DNA of 64,000 nucleotides from a virus. This document shows positions 8,812 through 23,168 of this stretch, in pieces. The stretch is from IMG/VR virus record IMGVR_UViG_3300027896_005002, positions 315,488 to 379,487 of that record. One strand, given 5' to 3'. The notes under the pieces were generated by a model. It saw nothing but the letters and a program-made list of their open reading frames with translations. It made no database searches and was not told the origin of the DNA. The position numbers and the translations under genes are program-made. How positions within the stretch are numbered: position 1 is the stretch's first letter; each line of letters begins with the position of its first letter.

Positions 8812-9318
8812 TTATTTTTGTAAAGTGAATTTAGGTAAGTCTTCAGTATTTGAGGTCTTAAATGGATCTGAAAAATTGACTCCAGATCCACCTTCAGGAT
8901 GTTTATCATGGGATAATCTATGTCGAATGACTTCAAAAATATCATGAGCTATTTTTACCATCTCAGTCACATTGTTTGAACATATTGAATAAGATTGATT
9001 CGGCAACAAATCAAATAAAATTTTTCTTACTTTATTCAAACTATCTTCAACTTCTTGATCATATCCTTTTAATTTCGACGCAGGCATTGCTATATCTATA
9101 GCATTACTGAATTGAGTTAAACCCAATCTCATAAAAGCTTCTAGTGCGGCAACCATAGCACTTGCCTGATTTTCAGTTAACTCTAAAACATATTTGCCTC
9201 TTGATTGTACAAATGGACATTCTTCAGCACCACGAATAAAAAACTCAGTTGGCACAGTGTAACCATATGGGCATTGATTTTTCATTTTATCATCCATCAA
9301 TACTAATTCCTTCTCCAT
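8812..9318 (-). CDS. hypothetical protein
   Basis: 168 aa, directly downstream of and overlapping the RtcB gene. No archease motifs were seen. Confidence 0.4.
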   Translation of the reverse strand: MEKELVLMDDKMKNQCPYGYTVPTEFFIRGAEECPFVQSRGKYVLELTENQASAMVAALEAFMRLGLTQFSNAIDIAMPASKLKGYDQEVEDSLNKVRKILFDLLPNQSYSICSNNVTEMVKIAHDIFEVIRHRLSHDKHPEGGSGVNFSDPFKTSNTEDLPKFTLQK

Positions 9319-10630
9319 CTTTCATATTATGAATTGGTTTAATTTTATCCAAAATAATAGCTGTTGGCGCTATTGCTTCTTCAATTATTCTTGCGTCCTT
9401 ATAAGCATTAGGAGCTTCATCCAAAGTGCTTCTACCAACGGATGTTGAAAATACAGCTGTCATCTGTTTTTTGAATTCATCTATATTAAGTTCTCTTTTA
9501 GCTTGTGATCGACTCATCACACGCCCAGCTCCATGCGGTGCCGAAAAATTCCATTCAGGATTTGATTGACCTTCACAAAGTAAAATACCATCACGCATAT
9601 TAAAAGGAATAATCATCTTCTCATTTTTATATGATCGAATAGCACCTTTACGTATAATAAAATCATTAAAATCAATGAAATTATGTATGGTCTCAATCAT
9701 TTCTAAAGGCGTTACCTTTAAAATATCAGTGATGATATTCATCATGTATAAACGATTAGTATGAGCATATAATTGACAAAAAATCATATCAAACAAATAT
9801 CCTGCCATGTCTTCATTTTCTAACCACATCAATTCTTCAGGACATTTAATTGTAGGTTGTTCACCTTTTTTTGCTTCCTGAATTTTATGATAAAGTTCAT
9901 CACCTTTATATTGTTGACGTAATTCAATTATTTTATTTTGTATATCTTCTCTTGTCGTTTTCTTCAATTTCTTAATAGCTTTGTTTTGCCAATATTCACA
10001 AACCTTCTTACCAAAATTTCTTGAACCAGAATGTATTGTTATCCAAACATCACCTTTTGTTGACACTCCGGTTTCAATAAAATGATTACCACCGCCTAAT
10101 GTTCCAACACTATCAATAACTCTTTTAAAATTAGCTTCAAGAATTTTACATTTTTGAGTAAGCCAGTCAATATCATATTTTTCCAATTCATACGTAATAC
10201 CCACACGACTATTAAAAGCAGCAAAAAATTTCTGTGCTAATACATTGGCATCATGCCATGGAAAATCATTTTTCATATGAATTACAGATCTTTCATGAAC
10301 ATTTTGCCCAAATGGTACTCGCTGACGAATCTTTCGATCAAATTCATCTAATGATATATCTAACTTTTTCCCAATATTACAAGTCAACATACCGCATGAT
10401 ACATCAACACCAACAACATTCGGCACAATTTTATCAGTTAATTCCATTGTAAATCCGATAACACTACCTTTACCTGCATGAGTATCAGGCATAATTGCTA
10501 CAGGATTTGTAAACACTGGATTATTGATAAATTGAGTGATTTGACCGACACAAGTTTCTTCAACATTGTCGATCATTATTTTTGCGTTTGTATATTTTCC
10601 ATTCATTTGTATCATATTTAATATAATCAT
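9290..10630 (-). CDS. rtcB: RtcB-family RNA 3'-phosphate/2',3'-cyclic phosphate ligase
   Basis: MPDTHAGKGSVIGF...GGNHFIE...GSRNFG...SAPHGAGR are the hallmark RtcB metal- and GTP-binding motifs. Confidence 0.85.
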   Translation of the reverse strand: MIILNMIQMNGKYTNAKIMIDNVEETCVGQITQFINNPVFTNPVAIMPDTHAGKGSVIGFTMELTDKIVPNVVGVDVSCGMLTCNIGKKLDISLDEFDRKIRQRVPFGQNVHERSVIHMKNDFPWHDANVLAQKFFAAFNSRVGITYELEKYDIDWLTQKCKILEANFKRVIDSVGTLGGGNHFIETGVSTKGDVWITIHSGSRNFGKKVCEYWQNKAIKKLKKTTREDIQNKIIELRQQYKGDELYHKIQEAKKGEQPTIKCPEELMWLENEDMAGYLFDMIFCQLYAHTNRLYMMNIITDILKVTPLEMIETIHNFIDFNDFIIRKGAIRSYKNEKMIIPFNMRDGILLCEGQSNPEWNFSAPHGAGRVMSRSQAKRELNIDEFKKQMTAVFSTSVGRSTLDEAPNAYKDARIIEEAIAPTAIILDKIKPIHNMKDGEGISIDG

Positions 10631-10671
10631 ATAATATGCATTGATATGAAGGAAAATTTAACTTATAGAAA

Positions 10672-10707
10672 ATAAAAATGGTCGGCTTGGAATCTTCCTA
10701 GCCGACC
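10672..10707 (-). terminator. rho-independent terminator (minus orientation)
   Basis: GGTCGGCT-12 nt-AGCCGACC is followed on the minus strand by ATTTTTAT. Confidence 0.4.
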
Positions 10708-11040
10708 ATCCTCCAATTTTAAATTTAACTCTTTTACCAATTAAAATCTAAATTCTTTACCAATTAATCAATTTTTCTAATAACATCATTTTTTCTAATA
10801 ATTGATTGGGATTTTCTCCACAATCCGCGCGCATCTAGTTTCATTGCTCAATGAGCTCCACTAGTTTGAAGGGTTTATTACAACGACCTTTTTGCGCAGA
10901 CATATAAGTCTAATAACATAACAAAATTAAATATAACATCATAAATATTAAATAAAAATAATTATTAGTTGTTACGACATTTTGTCCTCCAAGAAAAAGT
11001 TTCATATTATCTATTTTCTAAAAATAAAAAGGATATTTAT

Positions 11041-11679
11041 TTATTCATGTTGTTTTTCGTAGATTGTTCTCGTTAACCATTGTCTTGCTTCTATCTGATC
11101 TACAGTATTATCTTTTATTCTATCATAAAATTCACTATATGAAATCTTCGGAAAAACATCTAGATTAGAATTTAGAGACACATTAAAAACATTTTTATAA
11201 TTTGAAAAAATCTTGAACTTATAAGTCTTTGTATATGGTCGTTCATTCTCTCGACCTCTATGTGGAATGTCATGGAAATGACTAACATTATTTACAAACC
11301 CACAATCGTAACCTAACAAATATATTTCTTTAAAATCTAAAGCAATTCCTAACGACAAAGAAAATAATCCTACTAGAAAAGAACTATATAAACCTTGTTT
11401 TAAACCTTGACCACCACAAAATACATCAGAATCCTGTAATTTCATAATATCTGACGGTACATTGCATACACTTCTTGTAATTTTTATGCATTTTTTATCA
11501 TCAATAAATTGTTTTTGTTTATCATAAAATTCTCTATCAACCCAAATCAAAGCAGTTGGTTCATAAAAATGACAAACAAAATTTGTTCCAAAAGTAAATT
11601 GATTATCTAATTTTTTAAAGTCAAGTTCTTTTATACTTGGTCCGCCACCAATTATTACAAGTTTATTATTCATTATCAT
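11041..11679 (-). CDS. DUF115/MptE-like (Maf-like) putative glycosyltransferase
   Basis: The N-terminal KLVIIGGGPS motif resembles MptE-like/Maf nonulosonic-acid transferases. Confidence 0.3.
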   Translation of the reverse strand: MIMNNKLVIIGGGPSIKELDFKKLDNQFTFGTNFVCHFYEPTALIWVDREFYDKQKQFIDDKKCIKITRSVCNVPSDIMKLQDSDVFCGGQGLKQGLYSSFLVGLFSLSLGIALDFKEIYLLGYDCGFVNNVSHFHDIPHRGRENERPYTKTYKFKIFSNYKNVFNVSLNSNLDVFPKISYSEFYDRIKDNTVDQIEARQWLTRTIYEKQHE

Positions 11680-11726
11680 CTTCTATCCTTATAAGACAGG
11701 AAGGAGATAAAGGTCCAAGGGAAGAC

Positions 11727-12620
11727 TTACTTAATATCTTTTAGGAATTGTTGCATTTTTTCAATATCAGTTTCTTTACCTTCCCAGAATAAAGATAAAT
11801 ATGGAATATTTGGATCATGCCAAGTGCCTGCCAATTTTCTTCCAGGAGGTTCATTAAATGGTGGATAATAACAACAAACTGGTGTATAAAGCACATTAGC
11901 TAAAACCATTAATCCACTACAAGCACCAAAATACATTTTACTTTGTTGAAGAAGTGCTATTACACATAATAAATCAGGTGTTCGTCCAACTAAACTAATA
12001 GCTTGTATGTTGCGTTTTAAAAGTTCAACGTGTATATCATTCGTATAGTCATCATAATATCCGCCAACAAATACTGGAATCCAATTTGTCTTTTTCACTA
12101 TATCTTGTACTACATCAGCCGAAATAGATACATCATAATATCCCCAAGCTTTTTTAGTGCCGTAAGAAGAAAAATTTACAATAAAATAATTTGCTTTTGT
12201 AGATTTAGTCAATGCACCTTCAATTTTATAATGGAAATCTGTTGTCGGAATCTCATCTTTAAGCCAAAGTTCTAGTCTATTGCCATCTTCAAGAAAAGTA
12301 TTTGATTCAACAAATGTTGAAGCACCATTATTTAATTGACAATATTTAACCATTTTTGTTCGATTAGAATAAACAGAGGGATTACGTGATTTACAGATTA
12401 GTTCTATAGGTTTAACATGTTTATTCCACATTGTATGATATTGACTATTAGGACCAAAACTAAGAATTTTATCTTTAGATAATAAATTTAGATAGGCTTT
12501 CATTCTGTCAGGTTCACCACCGGCATATTCAATGTGATATTGATCACCAGTTGTTACAAATTTACTCCATGTCCAACTAAAATCACCAATACCACTTGGC
12601 ACCAAAATTTTGTGAATCAT
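11727..12620 (-). CDS. GT9-like (heptosyltransferase-like) glycosyltransferase, paralog of 18557..19405
   Basis: KILVPSGIGDFSWTW resembles the GT9 N-terminus (ILVIRLSxLGD). It shares clear similarity with the 282-aa paralog (GIGDF.W...GPDR...YLxLL). Confidence 0.35.
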   Translation of the reverse strand: MIHKILVPSGIGDFSWTWSKFVTTGDQYHIEYAGGEPDRMKAYLNLLSKDKILSFGPNSQYHTMWNKHVKPIELICKSRNPSVYSNRTKMVKYCQLNNGASTFVESNTFLEDGNRLELWLKDEIPTTDFHYKIEGALTKSTKANYFIVNFSSYGTKKAWGYYDVSISADVVQDIVKKTNWIPVFVGGYYDDYTNDIHVELLKRNIQAISLVGRTPDLLCVIALLQQSKMYFGACSGLMVLANVLYTPVCCYYPPFNEPPGRKLAGTWHDPNIPYLSLFWEGKETDIEKMQQFLKDIK

Positions 12621-12632
12621 ATAGACTCCTAT

Positions 12633-13547
12633 CTAATTTAAAATTTTTTTCGCTCTATTAATGTTTAAATGATGTCTTTTAAGCAAATCAAACGAATTTA
12701 GAGCAACATTTTCCATTTCTTTTAAATGATCTAAATAATAATAAACTATGTCTTTTAAATTATTTTTATCAAAAAATATCATACTTTCACCATGTCTAAA
12801 AAATTGGTCTTCTAATTCAATATCTGGTTTATCTGCTATTACACAATTATAATTTGATAATAATTCCCATAATCTCATACAATCCCAACCAGCACCTCTA
12901 ATATGAAAATTTAATTTAGATTTTCTTGATATTTCATAGTATCTATCTCTATCTAGAAATGTATCAGTAGCATATACAATTTTAAATTGTTTATGCATAT
13001 TAAATAATATCTTTCCTACATCCCACCGTAATTGATTAGACAAATTTCCAGAAAAAAATATATCAATTGGTCTTTTGTCAAAACTAATAAATTCTTCATT
13101 TAACATATACTTATTTGCAGACATAAACAATGGAACAGCTATTTTCTTTTCATTTTCTTTTATGATTTCTCTTTGAAATATTTTATGAATTCTTATAGGC
13201 GGCAAATTGGGTAATGCAGCTTCATCAGATCCATTTATATAAATAATTTCACCATTAAATTTATTGAAAAAACATTCAATATCATCCCATTTAAAAAACC
13301 AAAAATAACAATAATTTATGATGATATGTGAAATTTCATTATTGTTTATCATTGACAAAATGTTAGATTTAGAATACGCTGTAGGATATTGATTGACTTT
13401 AGTAAATATTGGTGTGTTTTTACCTCGCATATAATCAATATTTGGGTAATCTATGACATTATCTGCTCCTAACAATTCAATTAATCCTGACCACAAAGTT
13501 CCTGCGACATAATCAAAATTTTGACAAGTTATATAAAGAATTTTCAC
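12633..13547 (-). CDS. putative glycosyltransferase (CgeB/GT1-like)
   Basis: Assigned by its context in the glycan island. Similarity is weak. Confidence 0.25.
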   Translation of the reverse strand: MKILYITCQNFDYVAGTLWSGLIELLGADNVIDYPNIDYMRGKNTPIFTKVNQYPTAYSKSNILSMINNNEISHIIINYCYFWFFKWDDIECFFNKFNGEIIYINGSDEAALPNLPPIRIHKIFQREIIKENEKKIAVPLFMSANKYMLNEEFISFDKRPIDIFFSGNLSNQLRWDVGKILFNMHKQFKIVYATDTFLDRDRYYEISRKSKLNFHIRGAGWDCMRLWELLSNYNCVIADKPDIELEDQFFRHGESMIFFDKNNLKDIVYYYLDHLKEMENVALNSFDLLKRHHLNINRAKKILN

Positions 13548-13558
13548 ATTAGATTCTC

Positions 13559-14179
13559 TTATTCATAAAATTTTTCTCTTTGCCAAATAGCTTGACCTTC
13601 AGGATTATACGATAAATTAGGAAAATAAATGATATGACCATTATATTTTGTCATTATTTGTTTAATGGCTTCTTTTACTTGACCTATTCCTACATTATCA
13701 AAATATACAGTATCAACGCCTAATTTATAAATTATATCAAATTCTTCAACAACATAATCCTTTTCATGACAGCTATCTAAAAAAGCAAAATTTATTTTTA
13801 CATCAATTTCATTTAAGAAATTAATACTATTATTACAAATAATCTTTATGTTGGTTAATCCTGATTTTGCTATATTATCTGATGCTATTGCAACTTTTTC
13901 AAGGGAAGAATCGCAAGTTAAAATTGTGCCATTATAACCAGAATCTTTTAAAGCCTGACCCATAATAATTGACGAACATCCATAATTCGTTCCAGTTTCT
14001 ATTAAAAGATTTTCACCTTGTCTTAAACAACCTATAATACAATAATATAGTAATCCCCATGCCGGGTATCCAATTGATGAACCATTTTTCAAAAACGCTT
14101 CACCATTATCATGAACATCATCCAAAATTTTTAGATATTCATTAGGAAGCAAATTTCTGTTATAATTGAAATATCTCAT
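13559..14179 (-). CDS. class I SAM-dependent O-methyltransferase (TylF/MycF-like)
   Basis: LIETGTNYGCSSIIMGQAL is SAM motif I. It is a tandem paralog of the next gene. Confidence 0.5.
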   Translation of the reverse strand: MRYFNYNRNLLPNEYLKILDDVHDNGEAFLKNGSSIGYPAWGLLYYCIIGCLRQGENLLIETGTNYGCSSIIMGQALKDSGYNGTILTCDSSLEKVAIASDNIAKSGLTNIKIICNNSINFLNEIDVKINFAFLDSCHEKDYVVEEFDIIYKLGVDTVYFDNVGIGQVKEAIKQIMTKYNGHIIYFPNLSYNPEGQAIWQREKFYE

Positions 14180-14751
14180 TTTCTTACACTCAAAAGTAGA
14201 CCTTTATTTGATGGAAATATTACAGTATTCCAATCTTTTAAACTTTTCATGTACTCATATATATGCATCATTCTATGATCTGTATAAATATCATGAAATA
14301 ATGCTATTCCTTCATGATATATTTTATCTTTAACTATATCAAATTCAGCTACTGCAGTTTGAAAAGAATGTTGACTATCATGAAAAAAAACATCACAATA
14401 CTTAATATTTTTTATTAACTCCGGCAATAATTGTAAAGAATTTCCCAATTTAAATTCAAATTTTGCATTTAGACCAAACTTATCAATCCACGATTTTGTC
14501 CCAAAATCAGTTACATCCATTGTAAATATTTTACCATTTATATCAGCATCCCGTAAAGCCAATGCCATACATATTGATGAATATCCTTTATTTGTACCTG
14601 TTTCTATAATAATAAATGGTTCTGAATCTCTACCTACTCTATTGCTGCTTTTAGCTTTAGATATGACAAAATAATATAATAAATAGCCTAGTTCAAACTC
14701 TACAGACATTCCAGTCATATTTTTATTTAATTCTTCAATATCATTTTGCAT
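14176..14751 (-). CDS. class I SAM-dependent O-methyltransferase (TylF/MycF-like)
   Basis: IIETGTNKGYSSICMALAL is SAM motif I. It has an ATGA overlap with its neighbour. Confidence 0.5.
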   Translation of the reverse strand: MQNDIEELNKNMTGMSVEFELGYLLYYFVISKAKSSNRVGRDSEPFIIIETGTNKGYSSICMALALRDADINGKIFTMDVTDFGTKSWIDKFGLNAKFEFKLGNSLQLLPELIKNIKYCDVFFHDSQHSFQTAVAEFDIVKDKIYHEGIALFHDIYTDHRMMHIYEYMKSLKDWNTVIFPSNKGLLLSVRK

Positions 14752-15706
14752 TTAAAAATTTCTTTCTTTCATATTCTAGACATTCAATAACTGTTTCTTG
14801 AATAGAAAATTTGGGATACCAACCTAAATCTACTCTTATTTTTCTAGAATCTGCAACTTTATCAAAAGCTTCTTTATATGCAGATCCATGTAACTTAACA
14901 GGATCTGTAAATTGAATTTCAGATTTACTTCCCGATAATTTTAAAACCATTTTAGCTAAATCTAAAATAGTAATTTTGTTTAATTCATTACCAACATTAA
15001 AAACTTCTCTATTTACATCAGAATTTTGTATAAGCATAATTCCAGAAACAATATCTTTTACATTAGTAAAACTTCTAACCATTTTACCATCATAATAAAC
15101 TGTTAATGGTTCATTTCTTAAAGCAGCATTAATAAATCGAGGTAAAACAAAACCTCCTGGGATTGCACTTTGTCGTAATCCAATAATATTAAAAGGTCTT
15201 ATAATATTTATCTTCAAATCTAAAACTGAACTAGTATTCAATCCGCTAATTTCAGCCAATAATTTACCAACAGCATATTCTTGTCTTGCACTTGAATCAC
15301 TAATTACTATTTTATTATCAGTTTCTGCTAAATGTTCTTTTGGTGACGGTCCATATAATTCTGATGTTGAAACATATAATAGTTTTGCACCAGTTTCAAT
15401 ACATAATTTCATAACATTGCTTGTTTCTTCAATAATTCTACGACCAATTTGACCTGAATACTTTAAAACACCAACAGGACCAACAACACTTGCACAATGA
15501 TAAATATGATCATACTTTTTACTAGTAACAAATGTATTAATATCCTGTTTAATTATTGTAACTTGATTTTGATTAAAGAATGATTCAGTAATAACGTTTG
15601 ATTGACAATTATCAACAATATCAATATTATCAATTGTATTTGCTAATAAATTTTCAACAATATGAGAACCCAAAAAGCCTAATCCTCCGGTTACTAGATG
15701 ATTCAT
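14741..15706 (-). CDS. NAD-dependent sugar-nucleotide epimerase/dehydratase (extended SDR)
   Basis: VTGGLGFLGSHIV is the GxxGxxG motif. YAVGK is the YxxxK catalytic motif. The protein is 321 aa. Confidence 0.7.
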   Translation of the reverse strand: MNHLVTGGLGFLGSHIVENLLANTIDNIDIVDNCQSNVITESFFNQNQVTIIKQDINTFVTSKKYDHIYHCASVVGPVGVLKYSGQIGRRIIEETSNVMKLCIETGAKLLYVSTSELYGPSPKEHLAETDNKIVISDSSARQEYAVGKLLAEISGLNTSSVLDLKINIIRPFNIIGLRQSAIPGGFVLPRFINAALRNEPLTVYYDGKMVRSFTNVKDIVSGIMLIQNSDVNREVFNVGNELNKITILDLAKMVLKLSGSKSEIQFTDPVKLHGSAYKEAFDKVADSRKIRVDLGWYPKFSIQETVIECLEYERKKFLNAK

Positions 15707-17934
15707 GATATCTGCCTCCTAATATAAGGTTCAATAAATTTGTTCCATTCATTAACTTGTTCACCTAATTTATAATCTAAAAAAGCATGATTTATATGAT
15801 ATCCTAATCGTTCAGCATTCATACCAAAATGTTTTGTAAATGCAAATTGTGTATCTAATGCTGTTATTCTATTTGAATCAATTTTTTCAGTATAAAGTGT
15901 CCTTCCCATAAAACCTTGACTTCTCAAATGTATAAATGGTCCTGATGGCACAGATAAACTAATATACCCTAAATACGCAGCTTTTGATCCCATCCAACCT
16001 TCATAAAAATTAAATCCTGGTAAAAATCCTCCAGCTTTTTCCCATAAAGCTCGTTTTACAATTATAAGCCCACCTGGCCAAAAAGCTAATCCCAATTTTT
16101 TATTCAAAAGTTTTTCTCTATTACCTTTAATTAAATCCATATATGGAAACCCAGAATGAGTCAACATACTACTAAAATTAGCAGGTAAATTAATATGATC
16201 AGAAAAGATGATTTCTTTATTTTTTTCTTTCCACACATCAAGATAATCAAAAAATAATTTATATGTTAAATTACCATTGTTCCATGCTGCATCATCTTTA
16301 TAAAATTCTTCAATTATTTTATAATAAATATCTATATTTGAATCATTTATCTCATATCTAAAAATCCAATTTAATGGATCCAAAGTTGTTGGTATAAATC
16401 CAACTAATGCTAATAATGGCGCTTCAATATGAGGCAATCCCAACATTCCTAATTCAACAGGTCCTTGAGGTCCATTTAATTTAACATTATTTACATTATT
16501 TATTAAAATATAAGCAGCATCTAACCATTCAAAAGATGGTAAAACACCATCTTCTATTATTGCAACCCACTCATTGTCACAATTTTTAAAAATAAAATTT
16601 AAATTACTAGATAAATCAGGAGTATCATTAACAATAAATTTAACCCCAAAAGAATCACAAATTACTTTTTTCTTTTCAACTTCATCTTGTAACGGTGTTC
16701 CATCGTCAGATACTATGTATTCTACATCTTTAACATTAGTAAATTTTTGCAATTGTGGTAATAATGCTTTTAATCTATGACTTGCTATACTAACACTTGG
16801 AATTGCAATAGTAATTTTCATATTACACCTATTTATATTTAATTTTGATAAATTGATTTCTTTTTCTTGCTGTTCAGATTGTTGTTGTTCAATAGTTTTT
16901 ACTTGTAATGTATCTAATATTGACTTAAAAGTTAATCTCCATCGTTTATGTGTAATTTTTCTCCAATTAATAAGAGATTTTGAAATTGATTCAACAGATA
17001 AAGAATCGCACCAATCAAGAATATTAAAAGGCTGCCATGGACAATGACTTATATCAATTCTAGATAAAAAAGGTATTTCATCTGCCAAAAATTGTCTATA
17101 ATCTGTTCCAAGTAATAAACTTGGCATACCACTACCTGAACATGGCAAAGCACCATTATTGCGAATGCCTATATAAACATCTTTATCATTAAAAAAATTG
17201 CAAAATTTATTAAATGTATCAAACCAATTAATTGTTTTTGACAATTTTTCTGTAAAATATTCTTGCAAACCAAGATAATTTGATAATTTCCTCTCATATA
17301 TTAAATGAACATTATATTTACTTTTCTCAAATTCATCTATTATATATTTCATTTTTTCAAAATAATTCTTAAATGTATCATCAGTGCTACAACCAACTTC
17401 AGAAGGATTAGCTATTGATAATACAATATCTTTTTTACTAATTACTGATTTTGGCTCAAATGAATAAAAAGCAGGACAAGGTAAAATATGAGTAATATTA
17501 GATGCAAATCCATTCTTTACTGTTAACCACCAATAACAAAATCTATCTCTACAAACAACTAAATCAATAAGTTTTGAATCACGTAATTCAATTAATTCTT
17601 CTTTACCATAATAAAAATCGCTATTATATGGAACTGTTAATCCTACGCCAAGTAACATTAGCCTTTTTTTATATTTAATACAATACTTCCAAGATAATCT
17701 ATGTTCTATATCAAGCCATGATGGTATACCTGGTATAATAACATAATTTGCATTTTTTATTAAGGTTTCTAAAACTGTCGGCCCTTTGTCTTTTAATACT
17801 TTTGATGAAAATATAATATCAAAATTTTGTTGTAATTCGGGTAATAATTTAAAAATACCTTCAATAATAAAGTTACTACCTCCACCATCAAACTCCCAAG
17901 CAGTTGAAATCATTACAATATAATCTTTAGTCAT
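15703..17934 (-). CDS. large multidomain glycosyltransferase (central GT2-like GT-A domain)
   Basis: The central region KITIAIPSVS...YIVSDDGT is GT-A-like. The N- and C-terminal domains are not recognisable. Confidence 0.4.
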   Translation of the reverse strand: MTKDYIVMISTAWEFDGGGSNFIIEGIFKLLPELQQNFDIIFSSKVLKDKGPTVLETLIKNANYVIIPGIPSWLDIEHRLSWKYCIKYKKRLMLLGVGLTVPYNSDFYYGKEELIELRDSKLIDLVVCRDRFCYWWLTVKNGFASNITHILPCPAFYSFEPKSVISKKDIVLSIANPSEVGCSTDDTFKNYFEKMKYIIDEFEKSKYNVHLIYERKLSNYLGLQEYFTEKLSKTINWFDTFNKFCNFFNDKDVYIGIRNNGALPCSGSGMPSLLLGTDYRQFLADEIPFLSRIDISHCPWQPFNILDWCDSLSVESISKSLINWRKITHKRWRLTFKSILDTLQVKTIEQQQSEQQEKEINLSKLNINRCNMKITIAIPSVSIASHRLKALLPQLQKFTNVKDVEYIVSDDGTPLQDEVEKKKVICDSFGVKFIVNDTPDLSSNLNFIFKNCDNEWVAIIEDGVLPSFEWLDAAYILINNVNNVKLNGPQGPVELGMLGLPHIEAPLLALVGFIPTTLDPLNWIFRYEINDSNIDIYYKIIEEFYKDDAAWNNGNLTYKLFFDYLDVWKEKNKEIIFSDHINLPANFSSMLTHSGFPYMDLIKGNREKLLNKKLGLAFWPGGLIIVKRALWEKAGGFLPGFNFYEGWMGSKAAYLGYISLSVPSGPFIHLRSQGFMGRTLYTEKIDSNRITALDTQFAFTKHFGMNAERLGYHINHAFLDYKLGEQVNEWNKFIEPYIRRQIS

Positions 17935-17943
17935 AATTCCTTT

Positions 17944-18651
17944 TTATAGACGATTCTTTGCCGTCTGTTTCCTTTTAAACCGTCTTGATGCTTGATAATG
18001 TATTATTACTGGATTTTCAACTTTTATATAAGGTTCTTTTCCATCTGGTAAACTAAAAATATATGAATATTCTATAGGCAAATAATAACACTTTAAATTA
18101 GTAGAATTTACTAATCGTTCAAACCATATATGTTCTCCAGTATCTAAACTAAAACATTTCTTTCTCCATTCAGTTACAAATTTAAGAACATTATCATTAT
18201 TTCGAAAAAATATCGTTCCATTAAAAACTTCTTTTTTATTTGTATTAGTTCTATACCAAACATTATGGTCTAATACATGAAAAGCAATATCACATTCTTC
18301 AGGAATTGAATCAAATAATTTAGGATAACATTGCACTACAGCATCAGTATCAAGATAAACAATATTTTTAGGTTTGTTTTCAATTAATGCATTTAAAATA
18401 ATAGTTGGTTTGTGTGCAATATTAGCAAGCCAACTACCTTGATCTTCAACTTTTTTACACTCAAATTCAAGTTCCAATCTTTGTAATGATGGTAAAAGAA
18501 TGTCATTTGCCATTTGTTCATAACTACCAGGAGTATAAAAACTAATTACTTTGAATTTATTCATATATACTTTTAACAAATTTACATAAAGCTGTAATGT
18601 CTTGCTTATAATCAGACCATAAAAACCATTTATAAGGAACGTTTGGATCAC
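17944..18651 (-). CDS. GT-A fold nucleotide-sugar transferase (DxD); the true start is probably 18564
   Basis: Contains a YLDTDAV DxD motif. The internal Met MNKFKVISFYTPGSY gives an ATGAATAA overlap with the upstream stop. Confidence 0.4.
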   Translation of the reverse strand: MIQTFLINGFYGLIISKTLQLYVNLLKVYMNKFKVISFYTPGSYEQMANDILLPSLQRLELEFECKKVEDQGSWLANIAHKPTIILNALIENKPKNIVYLDTDAVVQCYPKLFDSIPEECDIAFHVLDHNVWYRTNTNKKEVFNGTIFFRNNDNVLKFVTEWRKKCFSLDTGEHIWFERLVNSTNLKCYYLPIEYSYIFSLPDGKEPYIKVENPVIIHYQASRRFKRKQTAKNRL

Positions 18652-19405
18652 TCCAACTGGTTGGTAATTGCGGTCTTGGCCACCATGACGCTGACGGAAT
18701 ACTTACCAAATTAGATAACATTGTCATACCGGAACTAACACAACCTAAAAAGAATTTACTACATTGAATTTGATGCAAGGCACTTAATACGTCTACTGTT
18801 TGTCCAATAAAATTGGTAACATTTGCATTTATTTTTACATATTCATCATAAACAGCTTTTGCAAAATCATCATAATCAGCACCAATAAAAATTGGTCTCC
18901 AATTTGTCTGTTTTTGTACAGCATATATTATTTCTAACCATCGAGGAACATCATATGTTTTCCAAATCTTTTGCATTTTCCATGATGACAGATGAACAAT
19001 AAATTGATCTTGTTGAACAGGATTTTTAAGCAATCCATTAAGTTCATAATGAAAATCTATTTTTAATTCTGGCATCCATACTTCAATACGACCACCATTT
19101 TCCAAATGTGTATTTGCTTCGACATAAGTTTGCTCATTTACTAACAAATCACTATAATTGAATGCTTTTCGCACAGCTGGAATTATTTTCATTTCCAAAT
19201 TTGAAAGAATAAATTGAGCTTTATAAGCTTTATTTTGCTTATAACCAACAATTTTATTTTTAGGTAGGAGAGTCAAATAAGGCCCTAATCTATCAGGGCC
19301 TGTATCTGGATATTCAACAAAATAACTGTCTTGTGTTGTAGATAATTTACACCATAACCAATGAAAATCACCAATTCCTGGAGGTACAATAATTTTGTAT
19401 AACAT
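18557..19405 (-). CDS. GT9-like glycosyltransferase, paralog of 11727..12620
   Basis: MLYKIIVPPGIGDFHWLWCKLSTT aligns with the 297-aa paralog. Confidence 0.35.
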   Translation of the reverse strand: MLYKIIVPPGIGDFHWLWCKLSTTQDSYFVEYPDTGPDRLGPYLTLLPKNKIVGYKQNKAYKAQFILSNLEMKIIPAVRKAFNYSDLLVNEQTYVEANTHLENGGRIEVWMPELKIDFHYELNGLLKNPVQQDQFIVHLSSWKMQKIWKTYDVPRWLEIIYAVQKQTNWRPIFIGADYDDFAKAVYDEYVKINANVTNFIGQTVDVLSALHQIQCSKFFLGCVSSGMTMLSNLVSIPSASWWPRPQLPTSWSDPNVPYKWFLWSDYKQDITALCKFVKSIYE

Positions 19406-19467
19406 AATTTTCCTAAATTTAAATTTAATTTATTTTATTTACTAATTTATATTAAATTTTACTGCAG

Positions 19468-20910
19468 TTATCGAATATCATATGCCGTTGGATCAACACC
19501 CTCTTTAGACGTACCAAACATAGAAATAGATACGCCTGCAGCAGTGCCAATAATCTCGTTGTTAGTTCTTGTTGATGTGGTTACTATAGGCTCTGCTTGA
19601 GTAAATTTTACATCATCAAATCTAGCAATTTCTGGTTTTGATAAAACGCCTGCGGTTATAGGTACTTTTTTTCCTATAATTGTTTTTTTTACAATCAATA
19701 ATGCCTTGTCAGATATCACATCTGGAGAAACACCATTAAAAATTCTAACAGAATAATTACCAGAGTCACTAGCTATTAAATTAATAATGGTCAATACAGC
19801 TGTATTTGTACCAGATATCCTACTACCACTGATTAGTGGTGTATGATTTCGTCTCCATTCATAAGATACTGTCGGTACACCTGTAGCTGTCACAGAAAAC
19901 ATGACAGTATCACCAAACATTTTATTTGCATCGATAGGCTGTACTATAATTTCAGGAGCTTGAGATAATATAACTTTTAAATAAGATCCTATATCTGCAT
20001 GTCCGGTTCTATTTACATTATTATAATCTACAGTCGGAACAACAGATTCTGCTGCATGATTAATACCTCTCCCGATACATGGACTATCATCTTGTAAAGT
20101 AAAATCATCTCCTGTAGGATTTGTAAACATAGGATCAGTGTTATGTATATTATGACTTCCAACAAATAATCCTGCATTTGCTCCAAATTCTTCAATACCA
20201 TAATTATAAGAAATACCATAATCAATAATTAAATTACATGTATCAGGTGTTTCTATCCTATAACACTCACTAGTATTATTCGAACATATATTATTTAACC
20301 ATTTTCCATTTACATGACCGTTACTTGTTTGTAAAATACCACGAGCACCCCCATAAAAAACATTATTGCAAATATTACCATAAAAAGTAACACCCGCTCC
20401 TTGAGCGATTTCAATTAAATTAACACCCATAATAAGGTCTTGACATATATTATTAGTTACAAGAGCTTCTACATCTGTCGAACAGTCAAATCGAAAAGTA
20501 GTAATATTGAAATGACATCTACTAATCTCGGATACAATTGTATTTAATCCTGCAATTTGTATTAATGAGAAAAAATTACCTTCACCAATAGTAGATTCAA
20601 ATCGTATATCATATAAGTTAATTGCTTTAGGAAAAAACAAAGATGCAAAACTTCCATCACTACCTGCAAGTTTCCATGTAGGTTTATTTGTATTCCCGCT
20701 CCAGGATCTAATTGTAATTGAATAAGGTGGCATCTCAATTACATGACCTGAATCATCAATCACTCCATTATCTACCAATTCTATAATAGTTCCATCAACA
20801 ATTGAATCTCCTATAATAGATTGTATTAGATCATACATGGAATGAAAGCCGGCATCAGGAGTAAGACCAGATGGAACAACGCCTGCAGCATTTAAATAAA
20901 AAGTTGACAT
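19468..20910 (-). CDS. beta-helix plus Ig-like domain protein (fibre/spike-like)
   Basis: Parallel beta-helix-like N/G-rich repeats (NICQDLIMGVN...NICNNVFYGGARG...NNICSNNT) are followed by an I-set Ig-like block (VSYEWRRNHTPL...DSGNYSV). Confidence 0.45.
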   Translation of the reverse strand: MSTFYLNAAGVVPSGLTPDAGFHSMYDLIQSIIGDSIVDGTIIELVDNGVIDDSGHVIEMPPYSITIRSWSGNTNKPTWKLAGSDGSFASLFFPKAINLYDIRFESTIGEGNFFSLIQIAGLNTIVSEISRCHFNITTFRFDCSTDVEALVTNNICQDLIMGVNLIEIAQGAGVTFYGNICNNVFYGGARGILQTSNGHVNGKWLNNICSNNTSECYRIETPDTCNLIIDYGISYNYGIEEFGANAGLFVGSHNIHNTDPMFTNPTGDDFTLQDDSPCIGRGINHAAESVVPTVDYNNVNRTGHADIGSYLKVILSQAPEIIVQPIDANKMFGDTVMFSVTATGVPTVSYEWRRNHTPLISGSRISGTNTAVLTIINLIASDSGNYSVRIFNGVSPDVISDKALLIVKKTIIGKKVPITAGVLSKPEIARFDDVKFTQAEPIVTTSTRTNNEIIGTAAGVSISMFGTSKEGVDPTAYDIR

Positions 20911-20936
20911 ATAATCCTTTCAAATATTATGAAAAC

Positions 20937-21617
20937 TTAACTTCGTTTTATTGATGATACATTATATCCAACAGGCTTACTTGCCTTAACAGGAGGAACA
21001 ATATTAACTAAATAACTAAAAATATTACTAGTTCTTATTCTATCATTAACTGTTACAAAAATATTTCGTGTAGTAGTATTTGAACTTCCAGTAATAATAA
21101 CTTTTGCAGAAGTATCAGTCATTGATATAATATTATATCCTACACCATCGGTCACAGATAACAAAAATGACCCTGGATATACTTTATCTGTAGTGACTAT
21201 TAAGTTTGCTAAACTAATATTTAAATAAGATCCTACATATAATTTTGGCACACTTACTTGTCCAATAATTTGCGGCATTGAAATCACAGTAATACTTAGA
21301 TTAAAATAATCAGACCATATAACTCCACCATCACTTACTCTAACAGGGACTGTTAAATCACCAACAAAATCTGTTGTCGGAATAACATCAAATTGATTTA
21401 GCACGCCAGATGCAAAAGATATTGTATAATGACTTCCAGCCAATGCTTCTATCATCCAATCTGTACCACTACCATCAGGATATGATGGATCATTAACATA
21501 TAAATCTGATAATACAACAAGTCGGTCAACATTAATAGCAGTCGATAATGCTTTTTGTCCAATAATAATGGCCATACACCCATCCTTGTTAAATGTTTTA
21601 ATTAGTAGAAAAATCAA
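20937..21617 (-). CDS. hypothetical (structural-like) protein
   Basis: A beta-rich S/T/V composition follows the spike-like gene. Internal Met 15 may be the real start. Confidence 0.3.
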   Translation of the reverse strand: MIFLLIKTFNKDGCMAIIIGQKALSTAINVDRLVVLSDLYVNDPSYPDGSGTDWMIEALAGSHYTISFASGVLNQFDVIPTTDFVGDLTVPVRVSDGGVIWSDYFNLSITVISMPQIIGQVSVPKLYVGSYLNISLANLIVTTDKVYPGSFLLSVTDGVGYNIISMTDTSAKVIITGSSNTTTRNIFVTVNDRIRTSNIFSYLVNIVPPVKASKPVGYNVSSIKRS

Positions 21618-21701
21618 ACTTTTATTTATTGAATAATTTATTTATATACGCTCATATTTACATAGTAAAAAAACGTACGTCAATCAACAAGAAAAGATCT
21701 G

Positions 21702-23168
21702 ATGAAACATTTAGCAAAAATACAATCTGAATTTATTAAATCTGCATTAACCAAGGCAGATATAAATTTGTCTGTAGTGGCTACTTCTCAAAATCAACTA
21801 ATGTTTTTTACTAAAGAACAAAGCAAGCATTTCAATGATTTCATTGGTGAAAAAAATGAATTAAACGTTAGACATAATGCTAACAATTCAATAATATATG
21901 TTGGCTGTGGTAATGAAAATCAAATCACTCAACATGTTATTCGTAGTGCTACATCATTCGGCATTCAAAAAGCACAACATTTAAACTGGCAAAAAATATC
22001 TGTTATTATTCCACCGTGGTTTAATAATACATATAAATATGCGTGTATAGAAGGAACATTACTTGGGTCATATATTTTTGATGAATATAGATCAATAAAA
22101 AAGCCAAAAATTTTAATAGAAATTGTTGATAAAGATTTTTCCACTGAACAATTGGAAGAAATTAAAATAATTTGTAATTGTACAAATTATGCTAGAGATC
22201 TTACAAACAGAAATGCAAGTGATAAATATCCTGAGAAATATGCCGAAGAAATTAGTAATCTTTTTTCAAAATACAATGTAACAATTAATATTTTAACAGA
22301 AAAAGAAATTGTAGAAAAAGGACTAGGTCTTTTAAATGCTGTTAGTAGTGGTTCACCAAAACCTCCTCGATTAATTATTCTCCAATATAAAGGTAATCCT
22401 ACATCAAAAGAAAATATTGCTATTATAGGCAAGGGCATCATATTTGACACTGGTGGACTAGATCTCAAAGAAGAAAATATGAAATATATGCGAAGAGATA
22501 TGGCTGGCAGTGCAGTAGTTGCTGCATTAATGAAAGCTATTTGCGAATTAAAAATGCAAATAAATATTACTGGAGTGATGCCATTATCTTATAATTCAGT
22601 CGACGCAAAATCATATCTTCCTGGTGATATTTATAAATCATATGATGGAAAAACAGTTCAAATTGATAATACTGACGCTGAAGGTCGATTAGTTCTTGCA
22701 GATGCTATTGCTTATTGTAAAAAGAATTATAATCCAACAATGATAATTGATGTTGCAACATTAACAAAAGCCGTTTCAACTGCATTAGGTAAAATCGCTG
22801 CTGGTCTATTTAGTAATGATGATGATTTAGCTAAAAATTTAATAGAAGCCGGTTTAAGAACCAATGAAAAATTATGGCGTTTACCATTATATAAAGAATA
22901 TGAAGAATCTATTCGTAGTGATCTTGCAGATTTAAAAAATTCTGATGAATATGAACAAGCAAAATCTGCTATGGGTGCTGCTTTCCTTAAACAATTCGTT
23001 GGACAAACTCCATGGGCACATCTTGATATTGCAGGTGTAGCTTACATTGAAAGATTAGGCGATGCACCAGAACATTTATCTCATGGTGAAGATCCTCATT
23101 ATGCTACAGGTTTTGGCGTTAGATTATTATGGCAATATCTTAAAAATAAAATAAGGATTACTAAATGA
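21702..23168 (+). CDS. pepA: M17 leucyl aminopeptidase carrying the N-terminal MKHLAKIQSEFIK module
   Basis: NTDAEGRLVLADAIAY is the M17 signature. VMPLSYNSV and DVATLT are the surrounding conserved blocks. Confidence 0.85.
   Translation: MKHLAKIQSEFIKSALTKADINLSVVATSQNQLMFFTKEQSKHFNDFIGEKNELNVRHNANNSIIYVGCGNENQITQHVIRSATSFGIQKAQHLNWQKISVIIPPWFNNTYKYACIEGTLLGSYIFDEYRSIKKPKILIEIVDKDFSTEQLEEIKIICNCTNYARDLTNRNASDKYPEKYAEEISNLFSKYNVTINILTEKEIVEKGLGLLNAVSSGSPKPPRLIILQYKGNPTSKENIAIIGKGIIFDTGGLDLKEENMKYMRRDMAGSAVVAALMKAICELKMQINITGVMPLSYNSVDAKSYLPGDIYKSYDGKTVQIDNTDAEGRLVLADAIAYCKKNYNPTMIIDVATLTKAVSTALGKIAAGLFSNDDDLAKNLIEAGLRTNEKLWRLPLYKEYEESIRSDLADLKNSDEYEQAKSAMGAAFLKQFVGQTPWAHLDIAGVAYIERLGDAPEHLSHGEDPHYATGFGVRLLWQYLKNKIRITK

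What the first reader, a model, noticed from the sequence alone, without database searches (positions are those of the whole stretch)
11041..19405. Eight-kb glycan-modification island directly adjoining fibre/spike-like genes
On the minus strand in succession: a DUF115/Maf-like gene, two GT9-like paralogs (11727 and 18557, clearly paralogous), a CgeB-like gene, tandem TylF-like sugar O-methyltransferases, an extended-SDR epimerase/dehydratase, a 743-aa multidomain GT and a DxD GT-A transferase. Next come a beta-helix/Ig protein and a structural-like ORF. Taken together these could synthesise a methylated glycan. Candidate targets are virion fibres (decoration or shielding, as in glycosylated giant-virus fibrils) or the host surface (superinfection exclusion).
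Basis: inference. Interest (0 to 1): 0.55.

Follow-up and report, generated by a model that had tools for sequence, protein, structure and literature searches.

The report
Phage glycan-building gene island
A huge (about 416 kb) uncultured phage carries nine back-to-back genes for building a methylated, probably xylose-containing and possibly pyruvylated sugar chain. Their core is a gene cassette found almost only on phage-like metagenome contigs, and what the sugar chain is attached to (a phage tail protein, the host surface or something else) is still unknown.

Summary
Nine co-oriented, tightly packed minus-strand genes at 11041-19405 encode sugar-handling enzymes:
- a DUF115/Cst-II-like transferase;
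- two paralogous, very divergent GT9-fold transferases;
- a CgeB-like GT1 protein;
- two cation-dependent O-methyltransferases;
- an SDR closest to UDP-glucuronate decarboxylase (UXS);
- a 743-aa fusion of a pyruvyl-transferase-like (PF04230) domain and a GT2 domain;
- a DxD GT-A transferase.

The two GT9-like genes bracket a conserved cassette: GT9-A, GT-A, PF04230, methyltransferase(s), GT9-B, often with DUF115. This cassette recurs in at least 8 other distinct metagenomic phage-like contigs (20-133 kb). It is absent from 50,697 GenBank phage records. Among 185,579 prokaryotic species genomes it occurs once, on a 21-kb MAG contig.

No island protein has a convincing membrane segment, and there is no flippase, polymerase or lipid-carrier transferase. 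I therefore infer cytoplasmic, carrier-independent glycosylation.

The acceptor is unresolved. Adjacency to fibre-like genes holds in about half of the loci, and the beta-helix neighbour again sits beside an unrelated transferase cluster elsewhere. My estimates are virion protein about 0.4, host LPS or capsule about 0.3, DNA under 0.1.

This is a new variant of a known kind, of moderate interest.

The parts
11041..11679 (-). DUF115/MptE-like, Cst-II (GT42)-like putative CMP-sugar transferase, 212 aa
   Evidence: Pfam MptE-like 1.9e-5, below cut-off. PHROG 4603 at 1.1e-13. Solved Cst-II at 2.5e-4. Homologs lie beside the cassette in L007, L013 and L019, and a few genes away in L004 and L014.
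11727..12620 (-). GT9-fold glycosyltransferase, B-type paralog, 297 aa
   Evidence: 34% identical to 18557-19405. AF2 pLDDT 95.9, with GT9 structures as top PDB matches. Profile hits WaaF at 8.5e-4. G10-I11-G12-D13 is invariant in 55 sequences.
12633..13547 (-). CgeB-type GT1 domain protein (Glyco_trans_1_2), 304 aa; add-on specific to this lineage
   Evidence: Pfam PF13524 at 1.5e-8, above cut-off. No homolog in the other cassette loci.
13559..14179 (-). Class I cation-dependent O-methyltransferase (Methyltransf_24), 206 aa
   Evidence: Pfam 2.2e-9; weak CmcI/rhamnosyl-OMT hits.
14176..14751 (-). Class I cation-dependent O-methyltransferase (Methyltransf_24/Methyltransf_3), 191 aa
   Evidence: Pfam 2.9e-15. 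30% identical to its neighbour. Solved O-methyltransferases are the best PDB hits.
14741..15706 (-). Extended SDR, UDP-glucuronate decarboxylase (UXS)-like, 321 aa
   Evidence: Epimerase 1e-31. Best solved relative is human UXS1 at 7.5e-34, ten orders of magnitude ahead of other SDR classes; STSELYG and YxxxK motifs are present. NCBIfam top hit is UDP-4-keto-pentose/UDP-xylose synthase, below the equivalog cut-off.
16888..17934 (-). N-terminal domain of the 743-aa protein: polysaccharide pyruvyl-transferase-like (PF04230)
   Evidence: 43-61% identical to stand-alone ~350-aa orthologs. Eight of 9 family members hit PF04230, best 9.4e-14. The window copy itself gives no direct hit.
15703..16887 (-). 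C-terminal domain of the 743-aa protein: GT2-family GT-A glycosyltransferase
   Evidence: Direct Pfam GT2 hit just below cut-off. Profile hits solved chondroitin synthase at 8e-17. Only 32 homologs among 1.84 billion representatives. D61, D62 and D113 are nearly invariant.
17944..18564 (-). DxD GT-A transferase (Nucleotid_trans, PF03407), 206 aa from the ATG at 18564
   Evidence: Pfam 1.5e-6, above cut-off. 46% identical to its L004 ortholog over the full 206 aa. The public gene call is 206 aa. DTD motif present in the sequence.
18557..19405 (-). GT9-fold glycosyltransferase, A-type paralog, 282 aa
   Evidence: 46-53% identical to A-type orthologs in 7 other loci.
19468..20910 (-). Putative virion protein: beta-helix-like N-terminal part plus I-set Ig domain, 480 aa; candidate acceptor or partner
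   Evidence: Ig_3 at 1.3e-10. Solved phage tail protein 9c2d_S at 3e-13. A homolog lies in a baseplate module. The beta-helix is only suggestive.
20937..21575 (-). Unknown 212-aa ORF at the head of the co-oriented gene block
   Evidence: No Pfam or PHROG hit. The public gene call is 212 aa. Membership in the unit rests only on position and orientation.

Best explanation
**What it is.** The island is a phage-encoded glycan assembly line that works in the cytoplasm without a lipid carrier.

**Proposed steps.** A UXS-like SDR converts host UDP-glucuronate to UDP-xylose or a 4-keto-pentose. Five or six soluble transferases then build a short oligosaccharide directly on an acceptor. These are two GT9-fold paralogs, a DxD GT-A, a GT2 domain, a CgeB-type GT1 and a Cst-II/Maf-like enzyme. 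Two O-methyltransferases and a pyruvyl-transferase-like domain cap or decorate the chain.

**Most likely acceptor.** A phage virion protein, with the apparently co-transcribed beta-helix/Ig tail-spike-like protein (19468-20910) or other fibres as first candidates. The result would be a glycan-coated fibre, comparable to giant-virus fibril glycosylation and mycobacteriophage virion glycosylation.

**Shown versus inferred.**
- Shown: enzyme family or fold assignments, paralogy, cassette conservation, near-restriction to phage-like contigs, and absence of membrane components.
- Inferred: donor sugars, order of reactions and the acceptor.
- Confidence in the enzymology is about 0.9. The figure of 0.4 refers to the whole statement, including the virion acceptor.
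For: - **Enzyme identities:**
- **Operon-like layout:** eleven co-oriented genes run from a divergent 84-nt intergenic region at 21618-21701 down to a 410-nt gap before RtcB.
- **No membrane machinery:** no island protein has a convincing membrane segment. The highest hydrophobicity score (1.75, in the DUF115-like protein) lies in its Rossmann-like core. No Wzx, Wzy, ABC transporter or priming transferase is present.
- **Conserved cassette:** it occurs in 8 other distinct loci (L004, L005, L007, L009, L011, L012, L013, L014) with variable insertions.
- **Near-restriction to phage-like contigs:** 64 family members in 5.8 billion proteins, all from metagenomes or MAGs. One MAG contig among 185,579 species genomes. 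No match in 50,697 GenBank phage records.
- **Fibre-like neighbours:** the cassette adjoins fibre-like or baseplate genes in the window, L004, L005, L007 and L014. Evidence includes Gp10_C, RCC1+DUF2793, Gly_rich_2+Laminin_G_3, PHROG tail-spike and virion hits, and fibre-like amino-acid composition.
- **The beta-helix protein family:** one homolog lies in a baseplate module. Another lies beside an unrelated GT/MT cluster.
- **Precedents for protein acceptors (established knowledge):** relatives of three of the enzyme families glycosylate proteins. TibC/Aah act on beta-helix autotransporters, Maf on flagellin, and CgeB on the spore crust.
- **Functional analogue:** the Mimivirus fibril cluster combines transferases, a pyruvyltransferase, a methyltransferase, an SDR and the fibril protein gene (PMC10117803).
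Against: - In L009, L011, L012 and L013 the cassette sits among integrase, RusA, ParB, Rep_O, DNA methylase or small early-type genes, not next to fibres.
- In the window it is flanked by RtcB/DnaC/DnaB and M17 peptidase/HD/helicase genes, 16 kb from the main baseplate module.
- The beta-helix assignment is weak, and the 212-aa ORF has no annotation.
- No glycosylation site or sequon was identified.
- The adjacent fibre-like proteins in different loci are not homologous to each other, so no common acceptor is visible.
- The GT9-fold proteins share only 9-16% identity with the top GT9 matches, so acceptor type cannot be read from family membership.
Confidence: 0.4

Rival explanations
1. Host-envelope remodelling. 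The enzymes act at the inner face of the membrane on host lipid A-core/LOS or another lipid-linked precursor. They would add heptose-like, hexose, pentose or nonulosonate residues with methyl caps. This would change the phage receptor and so block superinfection, or stop progeny from adsorbing to cell debris.
For: - The family set mirrors LOS/LPS-core loci: a WaaC/WaaF-like GT9 pair, a weak GT8-like signal in the GT-A, and a Cst-II-like transferase.
- WaaC and WaaF are soluble, peripheral enzymes, so the lack of membrane segments is compatible.
- The cassette lies in accessory or early regions of integrase-bearing contigs.
- Published reading of multi-transferase clusters in jumbo cyanophages is capsule or LPS modification (PMC7824862).
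Against: - The family occurs in only one of 185,579 prokaryotic species genomes, a 21-kb MAG contig, so it is not a recently borrowed LPS gene set.
- The residue aligned with the WaaF Asp of the DSG donor motif is Ser or Cys.
- The family's median pI is 6.5, not basic as would be expected for membrane-lipid-binding transferases (weak evidence).
- The cassette is adjacent to fibre genes in 5 of 9 loci.
- No export or ligase functions are present.
Confidence: 0.3
2. DNA hypermodification. The transferases glycosylate hydroxymethyl-pyrimidines in phage DNA, and the glycan is then methylated, to evade restriction and CRISPR.
For: - In the window and several loci the island lies among replication and DNA-metabolism genes: DnaB, DnaC, helicase, ParB, a DNA methylase and dGTP_diPhyd_N.
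- Phage multi-transferase plus epimerase DNA-glycosylation clusters are known (bioRxiv 10.1101/2023.12.21.572611).
- A ThyS-like gene sits beside the beta-helix homolog and a different transferase cluster in L021.
Against: - The gene tables for the seven cassette loci that carry precomputed Pfam hits (within 10 kb of the looked-up GT9-like gene) list no Tet/JBP, thymidylate-synthase-like or C5-methyltransferase family.
- The window has no relative of the L021 ThyS-like protein. None of its ORFs scanned with Pfam or PHROGs hit such a family; a few ORFs at both ends of the window were not scanned.
- The known DNA glycosyltransferases described in that preprint are T4 beta-GT-like GT-B or specific GT-A enzymes, not GT9, PF04230 or DUF115.
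- Five or six transferases with O-methyl and pyruvyl decoration have no precedent on DNA.
- The family pI is near neutral.
Confidence: 0.07
3. Another acceptor or role. The cassette might make a soluble or carrier-protein-bound glycoconjugate or metabolite. Alternatively, the beta-helix protein might be an enzymatic partner, such as a lyase or epimerase acting on the same glycan, rather than its substrate.
For: - PP-binding carrier-protein genes lie just after the cassette in L009 and L011.
- The top fold matches of the beta-helix part are polysaccharide lyases and esterases, though not significant.
- No common acceptor protein is seen across loci.
Against: - No carrier-protein gene is present in the window.
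- A beta-helix homolog sits inside a baseplate module.
- No core scaffold-forming enzymes for a metabolite are present.
Confidence: 0.12

Closest known systems
Megavirinae (Mimivirus) fibril glycosylation gene clusters (PMC10117803, PMC8456856)
   Same: A virus-encoded, host-independent cluster that combines an SDR nucleotide-sugar enzyme, several glycosyltransferases (some multidomain), a pyruvyltransferase and a SAM methyltransferase. It sits beside a gene for a surface fibre protein. The product there is a methylated and pyruvylated glycan on virion fibrils.
   Different: That system belongs to a eukaryotic giant virus, not a tailed phage. There is no detectable sequence relationship. The sugars differ (Rha, GlcNAc, Vio4NAc versus a likely pentose here). 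GT9-fold and DUF115-like enzymes are not part of the Mimivirus cluster. Glycosylation of the virion is not demonstrated here.
Mycobacteriophage virion glycosylation (Freeman et al. 2023, as cited in PMC12619734; the paper itself could not be read here)
   Same: Phage-encoded transferases modify virion proteins in the cytoplasm.
   Different: Different hosts, different transferase families and fewer genes. The target there is the C-termini of the capsid and tail-tube subunits, and it was shown experimentally.
CAZy GT9 heptosyltransferases: WaaC/WaaF (LPS core) and TibC/Aah (autotransporter heptosylation)
   Same: GT-B fold, with GT9 structures as the best matches. An N-terminal G-x-G-D motif and a C-terminal SGL motif are present. 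The enzymes occur as a pair, like WaaC/WaaF. TibC acts on a beta-helix protein encoded next to it.
   Different: About 290 aa, against 320-400 aa for the known enzymes. Only 9-16% identity to the top GT9 matches. The window proteins do not reach the PF01075 threshold. The residue aligned with the WaaF Asp of the DSG donor motif is Ser or Cys. The family is almost confined to phage-like contigs, and its donor and acceptor are unknown.
Multi-glycosyltransferase 'capsular polysaccharide modification' clusters of jumbo cyanophages (PMC7824862, PMC12801897)
   Same: Large phages carry clusters of paralogous transferases, NDP-sugar enzymes and O-methyltransferases, variable between relatives and of unproven target.
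   Different: Different transferase families. The cassette described here also occurs on contigs of about 20-57 kb and has a fixed gene order bracketed by the two GT9-fold paralogs.
Phage DNA glycosylation clusters (5mYOX/ThyS plus GT plus epimerase; bioRxiv 10.1101/2023.12.21.572611)
   Same: Phage-encoded sequential transferases with a partner SDR, often near replication genes.
   Different: The defining hydroxymethyl-base-forming enzyme is missing from the scanned window ORFs and from the Pfam-annotated related loci, and the transferase families differ.

Membership tests
CAZy GT9 / Pfam PF01075 (the two paralogs) | GT-B two-Rossmann fold closest to solved GT9 enzymes | tested here: met
   AF2 pLDDT 95.9. 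Foldseek top matches are 3tov, WaaC, WaaF and TibC, E 3e-7 to 1e-4, TM 0.43-0.59.
CAZy GT9 / Pfam PF01075 (the two paralogs) | Sequence match to the family model above its threshold | tested here: not met
   Neither window paralog gives a Pfam or NCBIfam hit. Only 5 of 64 family members carry a precomputed PF01075 hit. The family profile hits WaaF at 8.5e-4.
CAZy GT9 / Pfam PF01075 (the two paralogs) | Catalytic and donor-binding residues: N-terminal G-D Asp, and the Asp of the C-terminal DSG motif | tested here: inconclusive
   G10-I11-G12-D13 is invariant in 55 sequences; its equivalence to WaaC Asp13 is recalled from memory, not aligned here. In the alignment with WaaF, the Asp before SGL is Ser or Cys in this family.
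Polysaccharide pyruvyl transferase, PF04230 (N-terminal domain of the 743-aa protein) | Match to PF04230 | tested here: inconclusive
   The window domain gives no hit at E<=0.01. Eight of its 9 family members (43-61% identical orthologs plus one 18% paralog) do hit, best 9.4e-14. No solved relative was found by sequence. Pyruvyl-transfer activity is not testable here.
GT2 (C-terminal domain of the 743-aa protein) | GT-A fold family 2 signature with DD and DxD-type acidic motifs | tested here: met
   Direct PF00535 score is 21.5 bits against a cut-off of 23.3. The profile hits solved chondroitin synthase at 8e-17 and cellulose synthase at 8e-9. Eighteen of 28 homologs hit PF00535. D61, D62 and D113 are nearly invariant.
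UDP-glucuronate decarboxylase (UXS/ArnA-type extended SDR) | Closest to UXS; GxxGxxG, S/T-S-E-x-Y-G and YxxxK motifs | tested here: met
   Human UXS1 at 7.5e-34; the next SDR class is at 1e-23 or weaker. The aligned motifs are GGLGFLGSH, STSELYG and YAVGK. NCBIfam equivalog cut-offs are not reached, so the exact product is inferred.
   Hits are to Methyltransf_24, Methyltransf_3, weak CmcI/rhamnosyl-OMT and COMT-like structures. No TylF family appears at E<=0.01. Membership in the cation-dependent O-methyltransferase superfamily is met.
DUF115/MptE-like, including Maf and GT42 Cst-II | Match to the family models | tested here: inconclusive
   PF01973 scores 25 bits against a cut-off of 34.6. 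PHROG 4603 at 1.1e-13. Cst-II at 2.5e-4 in two stretches.
Virus-encoded virion glycosylation system | Glycan covalently attached to a virion protein | not testable with these tools
   Only gene-neighbourhood evidence is available.
Phage DNA glycosylation system | Enzyme forming a hydroxymethyl pyrimidine (ThyS homolog, or C5-MT plus 5mYOX) in the same cluster | tested here: not met
   The gene tables for the seven Pfam-annotated cassette loci (within 10 kb of the looked-up GT9-like gene) list no such family. The window has no relative of the L021 ThyS-like protein and no such hit among its scanned ORFs. The rest of the 416-kb genome was not seen.
Lipid-carrier-dependent O-antigen/capsule pathway or Gtr-type seroconversion | Polytopic membrane components: Wzx, Wzy, ABC transporter, priming transferase, GtrA/B/C | tested here: not met
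   No convincing membrane segment in any island protein, and no such Pfam family.

The most novel reading that the evidence does not exclude
Tailed phages of very different genome sizes share a cassette seen almost only on phage-like contigs. In it, a pair of TibC-like GT9-fold enzymes and their partners directly glycosylate a tail spike or fibre protein in the cytoplasm. The glycan would be O-methylated, pyruvylated and pentose-containing. This would be a bacterial-virus counterpart of giant-virus fibril glycosylation, with variable add-on genes diversifying the virion's sugar coat.
Probability: 0.35. Interest if true: 0.75.

Novelty: new variant of a known kind. Interest (0 to 1): 0.55.

Why it matters
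Virus-encoded glycosylation is well documented for chloroviruses and mimiviruses, and for a few mycobacteriophages. For most phage transferase clusters the target is only guessed.

This cassette is compact, conserved and almost confined to phage-like contigs. It has a fixed gene order and recurs on contigs from about 20 kb to 416 kb, so it is a tractable unit for heterologous expression.

If it decorates tail proteins, it would add a layer to host-range determination, immune or defence evasion and particle stability. It would also supply new protein glycosyltransferases, such as short GT9-fold enzymes that probably do not use heptose. If it instead rewrites the LPS core, it would be a new receptor-masking mechanism in lytic and huge phages.

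Tried and rejected
- **Nucleotide search:** the island has no DNA match in GenBank phages.
[quoted passage not shown] The exhaustive search then found 32 relatives.
- **Structure of the 480-aa protein:** only 3 homologs were available. The model was poor (pLDDT 45.7) and its fold matches were not significant. They are used only as a hint.
- **Solved-structure sequence searches** gave nothing for the full 743-aa protein, the DxD GT-A, the CgeB-like protein or the PF04230-like profile.
- **Promoter and terminator scan:** promoter-like sites were at chance level in this AT-rich DNA, and the few terminator-like sites lie inside coding sequence, so the scan did not delimit the transcription unit.
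- **Rfam:** no RNA family in 9000-23000.
- **Recent horizontal acquisition by composition:** rejected. Island GC is 27-30%, the same as its flanks.
- **Homology between fibre-like neighbours in different loci:** none found.
- **Freeman et al. 2023** could not be read.
- **Literature:** searches found no description of this cassette.

Full report
**Source and context**

The window is part of a 415,903-bp metagenome contig, ena:ERZ27247850:k141_2484546. GC content is about 29% throughout. The gene content is that of a huge tailed phage:
- Replication and repair: DnaB-like helicase, DnaC-like loader, exonuclease, RtcB ligase, a second helicase and an FtsK-like ATPase.
- Virion: a Baseplate_J/gp6-like 1348-aa protein and PKD- and Ig-rich proteins of 1269-2127 aa, at 37141-64000.
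- A GIY-YIG homing endonuclease and two tRNAs.

**Checking the observation**

All are on the minus strand, separated by at most 47 nt or overlapping by 4-11 nt. The assignments are as follows.
- 11041-11679 is DUF115/MptE-like. The Pfam hit is below cut-off, but it matches PHROG 4603 'alpha-2,3-sialyltransferase' at 1.1e-13 and solved Cst-II at 2.5e-4.
- 11727-12620 and 18557-19405 are real paralogs, 34% identical, E 2e-65. Neither has a Pfam or NCBIfam hit.
  - A 55-sequence alignment gave an AF2 model with pLDDT 95.9.
  - Its best solved matches are GT9 enzymes: Veillonella GT9 3tov, WaaC, WaaF and TibC, at E 3e-7 to 1e-4.
  - The family profile hits WaaF at 8.5e-4 and TibC at 0.09.
  - 'GT9-like' therefore holds at the level of fold and remote homology.
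  - An N-terminal G-I-G-D motif is invariant. The Asp that precedes SGL in WaaF is Ser or Cys here, so ADP-heptose should not be assumed as donor.
- 12633-13547 carries the CgeB-type Glyco_trans_1_2 domain, 1.5e-8.
- 13559-14179 and 14176-14751 are both Methyltransf_24 and are 30% identical to each other. They belong to the cation-dependent O-methyltransferase superfamily. No TylF hit was seen.
- 14741-15706 is an extended SDR. Its closest solved relative by ten orders of magnitude is human UDP-glucuronate decarboxylase (7.5e-34), with matching STSELYG and YxxxK motifs.
- 15703-17934 (743 aa) is a two-domain fusion.
  - The C-terminal half is GT2: profile against chondroitin synthase 8e-17, and 18 of 28 homologs hit PF00535.
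  - The N-terminal half is orthologous (43-61% identity) to stand-alone ~350-aa proteins that hit PF04230, polysaccharide pyruvyl transferase.
- 17944-18564 is a Nucleotid_trans DxD GT-A. Its real start is the ATG at 18564, not the GTG at 18651.

**The two neighbours**

- The 480-aa protein at 19468-20910 has a clear I-set Ig domain. That domain also matches a solved phage tail protein, 9c2d_S, at 3e-13.
- Its N-terminal 310 residues look like a right-handed beta-helix, but the evidence is only suggestive:
  - repeated N-x-C-x-N motifs in the sequence;
  - weak DUF5123 and choice-of-anchor-Q hits;
  - an AF2 model of stacked short strands with pLDDT 60-79;
  - beta-helix lyases and tailspikes as top fold matches, all non-significant at E>=0.009.
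- The 'structural-like' ORF at 20937-21617 has no hit of any kind.
- 'Directly adjoining fibre/spike-like genes' is therefore half true. There is one plausible virion protein next to the island. The phage's main tail module is 16 kb away, and the island's other flanks are RtcB/DnaC/DnaB on one side and an M17 aminopeptidase, HD protein and helicase on the other.

**A conserved cassette**

- The GT9-fold family has only 64 members (90%-identity clusters) among 5.8 billion proteins, all from metagenomes or MAGs. They split into A-type and B-type proteins, which co-occur on the same contigs.
- Gene neighbourhoods, tblastn and all-against-all clustering show a fixed order:
  - GT9-A, then the DxD GT-A, then the PF04230-like protein;
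  - then Methyltransf_24, then a second methyltransferase (types 11, 21 or 24), then GT9-B;
  - the DUF115-like gene is often beside it.
- This order occurs in the window and in eight other distinct loci: L004, L005, L007, L009, L011, L012, L013 and L014. Their contigs range from about 20 to 133 kb.
- A few loci lack one element or have it displaced:
  - no GT-A was found in L005 or L011;
  - L013 lacks the PF04230-like gene and has its GT-A displaced;
  - the L005 A-type copy is divergent.
- The window version is expanded by the GT2 fusion, the UXS-like SDR and the CgeB-like gene. L007 is expanded differently, with a second PF04230 gene, extra methyltransferases and an unrelated SDR.
- A scan of one genome for each of 185,579 prokaryotic species found a single locus, a 21-kb MAG contig that resembles L004.
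- A tblastn search against 50,697 GenBank phage records found nothing.
- Fold-level relatives annotated 'RfaF' or 'Aah/TibC' do exist in uncultured Caudovirales, at 16% identity or less.
- Literature searches found no description of this cassette.

**How it probably works**

- No island protein has a convincing membrane segment. There is no flippase, polymerase, exporter or polyprenyl-phosphate priming transferase. I therefore infer that the sugars are added one by one to an acceptor available in the cytoplasm.
- The inferred sequence is as follows:
  - The UXS-like SDR supplies a pentose donor from host UDP-glucuronate.
  - Five or six transferases extend the chain.
  - The two O-methyltransferases and the PF04230 domain cap or decorate it.
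- Enzyme classes are shown by the searches. Donors, reaction order and acceptor are inferred.

**Which acceptor: evidence for a virion protein**

- The island and the beta-helix/Ig gene form one co-oriented block. It runs from a divergent 84-nt spacer at 21618-21701 to a 410-nt gap before RtcB.
- The cassette adjoins fibre-like or baseplate genes in the window, L004, L005, L007 and L014. The evidence is Gp10_C, RCC1+DUF2793, Gly_rich_2+Laminin_G_3, PHROG tail-spike and virion hits, and fibre-like composition.
- L007 has a third GT9-domain gene inside its fibre module.
- A 32%-identical homolog of the beta-helix part lies in a baseplate module with Phage_base_V and GPW_gp25.
- A 46%-identical homolog lies next to an unrelated cluster containing a GT2+methyltransferase fusion and a 767-aa multi-transferase protein.
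- From established knowledge, three of the enzyme families include protein glycosyltransferases: TibC/Aah, Maf and CgeB.

**Which acceptor: evidence against a virion protein**

- In L009, L011, L012 and L013 the cassette lies among integrase, RusA, ParB, Rep_O, DNA methylase and small early-type genes.
- The adjacent fibre-like proteins are not homologous across loci.

**Rival acceptors**

- Host LPS-core or LOS remodelling is a serious alternative.
  - The enzyme set resembles an LOS locus.
  - This is also the usual published reading of jumbo-phage transferase clusters (PMC7824862).
- DNA glycosylation is less likely.
  - Its defining hydroxymethylase or dioxygenase genes do not appear in the gene tables of the seven Pfam-annotated cassette loci.
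  - The window has no relative of the L021 ThyS-like protein and no such hit among its scanned ORFs.
  - The transferase families also differ from known DNA glycosyltransferases (bioRxiv 10.1101/2023.12.21.572611).

**Comparison with known systems**

- The nearest functional analogue is the Mimivirus fibril glycosylation cluster. It combines an SDR, several transferases, a pyruvyltransferase and a methyltransferase beside the fibril protein gene, and it yields methylated and pyruvylated glycans (PMC10117803).
- The nearest phage analogue is mycobacteriophage virion glycosylation. It is known here only through citations, because the paper itself is not in the held library.
- Neither system is related in sequence to this island.

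**Verdict**

The island is a real glycan-synthesis unit. It is a new variant of a known kind, virus-encoded glycosylation clusters. Its added interest is that its core is a conserved, uncharacterised cassette almost confined to phage-like contigs. The target of the glycan is the open question, and a simple expression experiment could settle it.

Noticed in passing
window 52018-52809 (-): A GIY-YIG homing endonuclease (PHROG 314, 3e-42) sits between the Baseplate_J-like 1348-aa gene (47994-52040, overlapping it by 23 nt) and the next structural gene. It looks like a mobile endonuclease inserted in the baseplate module.
   Followed up: no
window 21702-23168 (+): A full-length M17 leucyl aminopeptidase (Peptidase_M17, 1.2e-110) is encoded divergently from the island block. 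This is an unusual enzyme for a phage.
   Followed up: no
window 9290-10630 (-) and 182-741: An RtcB RNA ligase lies immediately after the island, and tRNA-Ser(GCU) and tRNA-Phe(GAA) lie at the window start. The best phage RtcB match (45% identity) is in the 735-kb uncultured phage records LR756501 and LR756503.
   Followed up: partly
window 37141-41574, 41602-47985, 55712-59521, 60244-63960 (-): Giant proteins of 1238-2127 aa, three of them with PKD repeats, HYDIN/ASH-type Ig domains or chitobiase C-terminal-like domains, surround the baseplate gene. They are probably tail fibres or decorations and are further candidate glycan acceptors. The 1238-aa ORF (60244-63960) was not scanned.
   Followed up: partly
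L021 3248-9961 (jgi 3300063008 Ga0598244_0000192): A 46%-identical homolog of the beta-helix protein is followed by a thymidylate-synthase-like gene (weak hit), a 656-aa GT2+Methyltransf_11 fusion and a 767-aa multi-transferase protein. This is a different glycan or modification cluster next to the same protein family.
   Followed up: partly
L007 2071-3663 (ena ERZ27247725 k141_1954217): A 530-aa protein with a clear PF01075 (GT9) hit lies between Gp10_C baseplate and RCC1/DUF2793 fibre genes, upstream of the cassette. It is a third GT9-type gene, embedded in the tail module.
   Followed up: no
L009 15655-15903; L011 14215-14487: Small PP-binding (acyl/peptidyl carrier) proteins are encoded just downstream of the cassette in two loci. 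In L011, dGTP_diPhyd_N and nucleoside deoxyribosyltransferase-like genes also follow. Any link to the cassette is unknown.
   Followed up: no
L004, L007, L014 (F8, ~105 aa); L004, L005, L013, L014 (F6, 130-148 aa): Two small conserved ORF families of unknown function flank the cassette in several loci: F8 just before GT9-A, and F6 close after GT9-B (in L013, just before GT9-A). Both are absent from the window.
   Followed up: no
window 10631-11040: A 410-nt stretch between the island and RtcB has no ORF longer than 35 aa and no Rfam match. It may hold the terminator or promoter that ends the island's transcription unit.
   Followed up: partly
window 15706-16887 (tool behaviour): The word-indexed protein search returned no hit for the GT2 domain, not even its own parent protein. 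The exhaustive representative search found the parent and 31 relatives. Negative results from the indexed search should be treated with care.
   Followed up: yes
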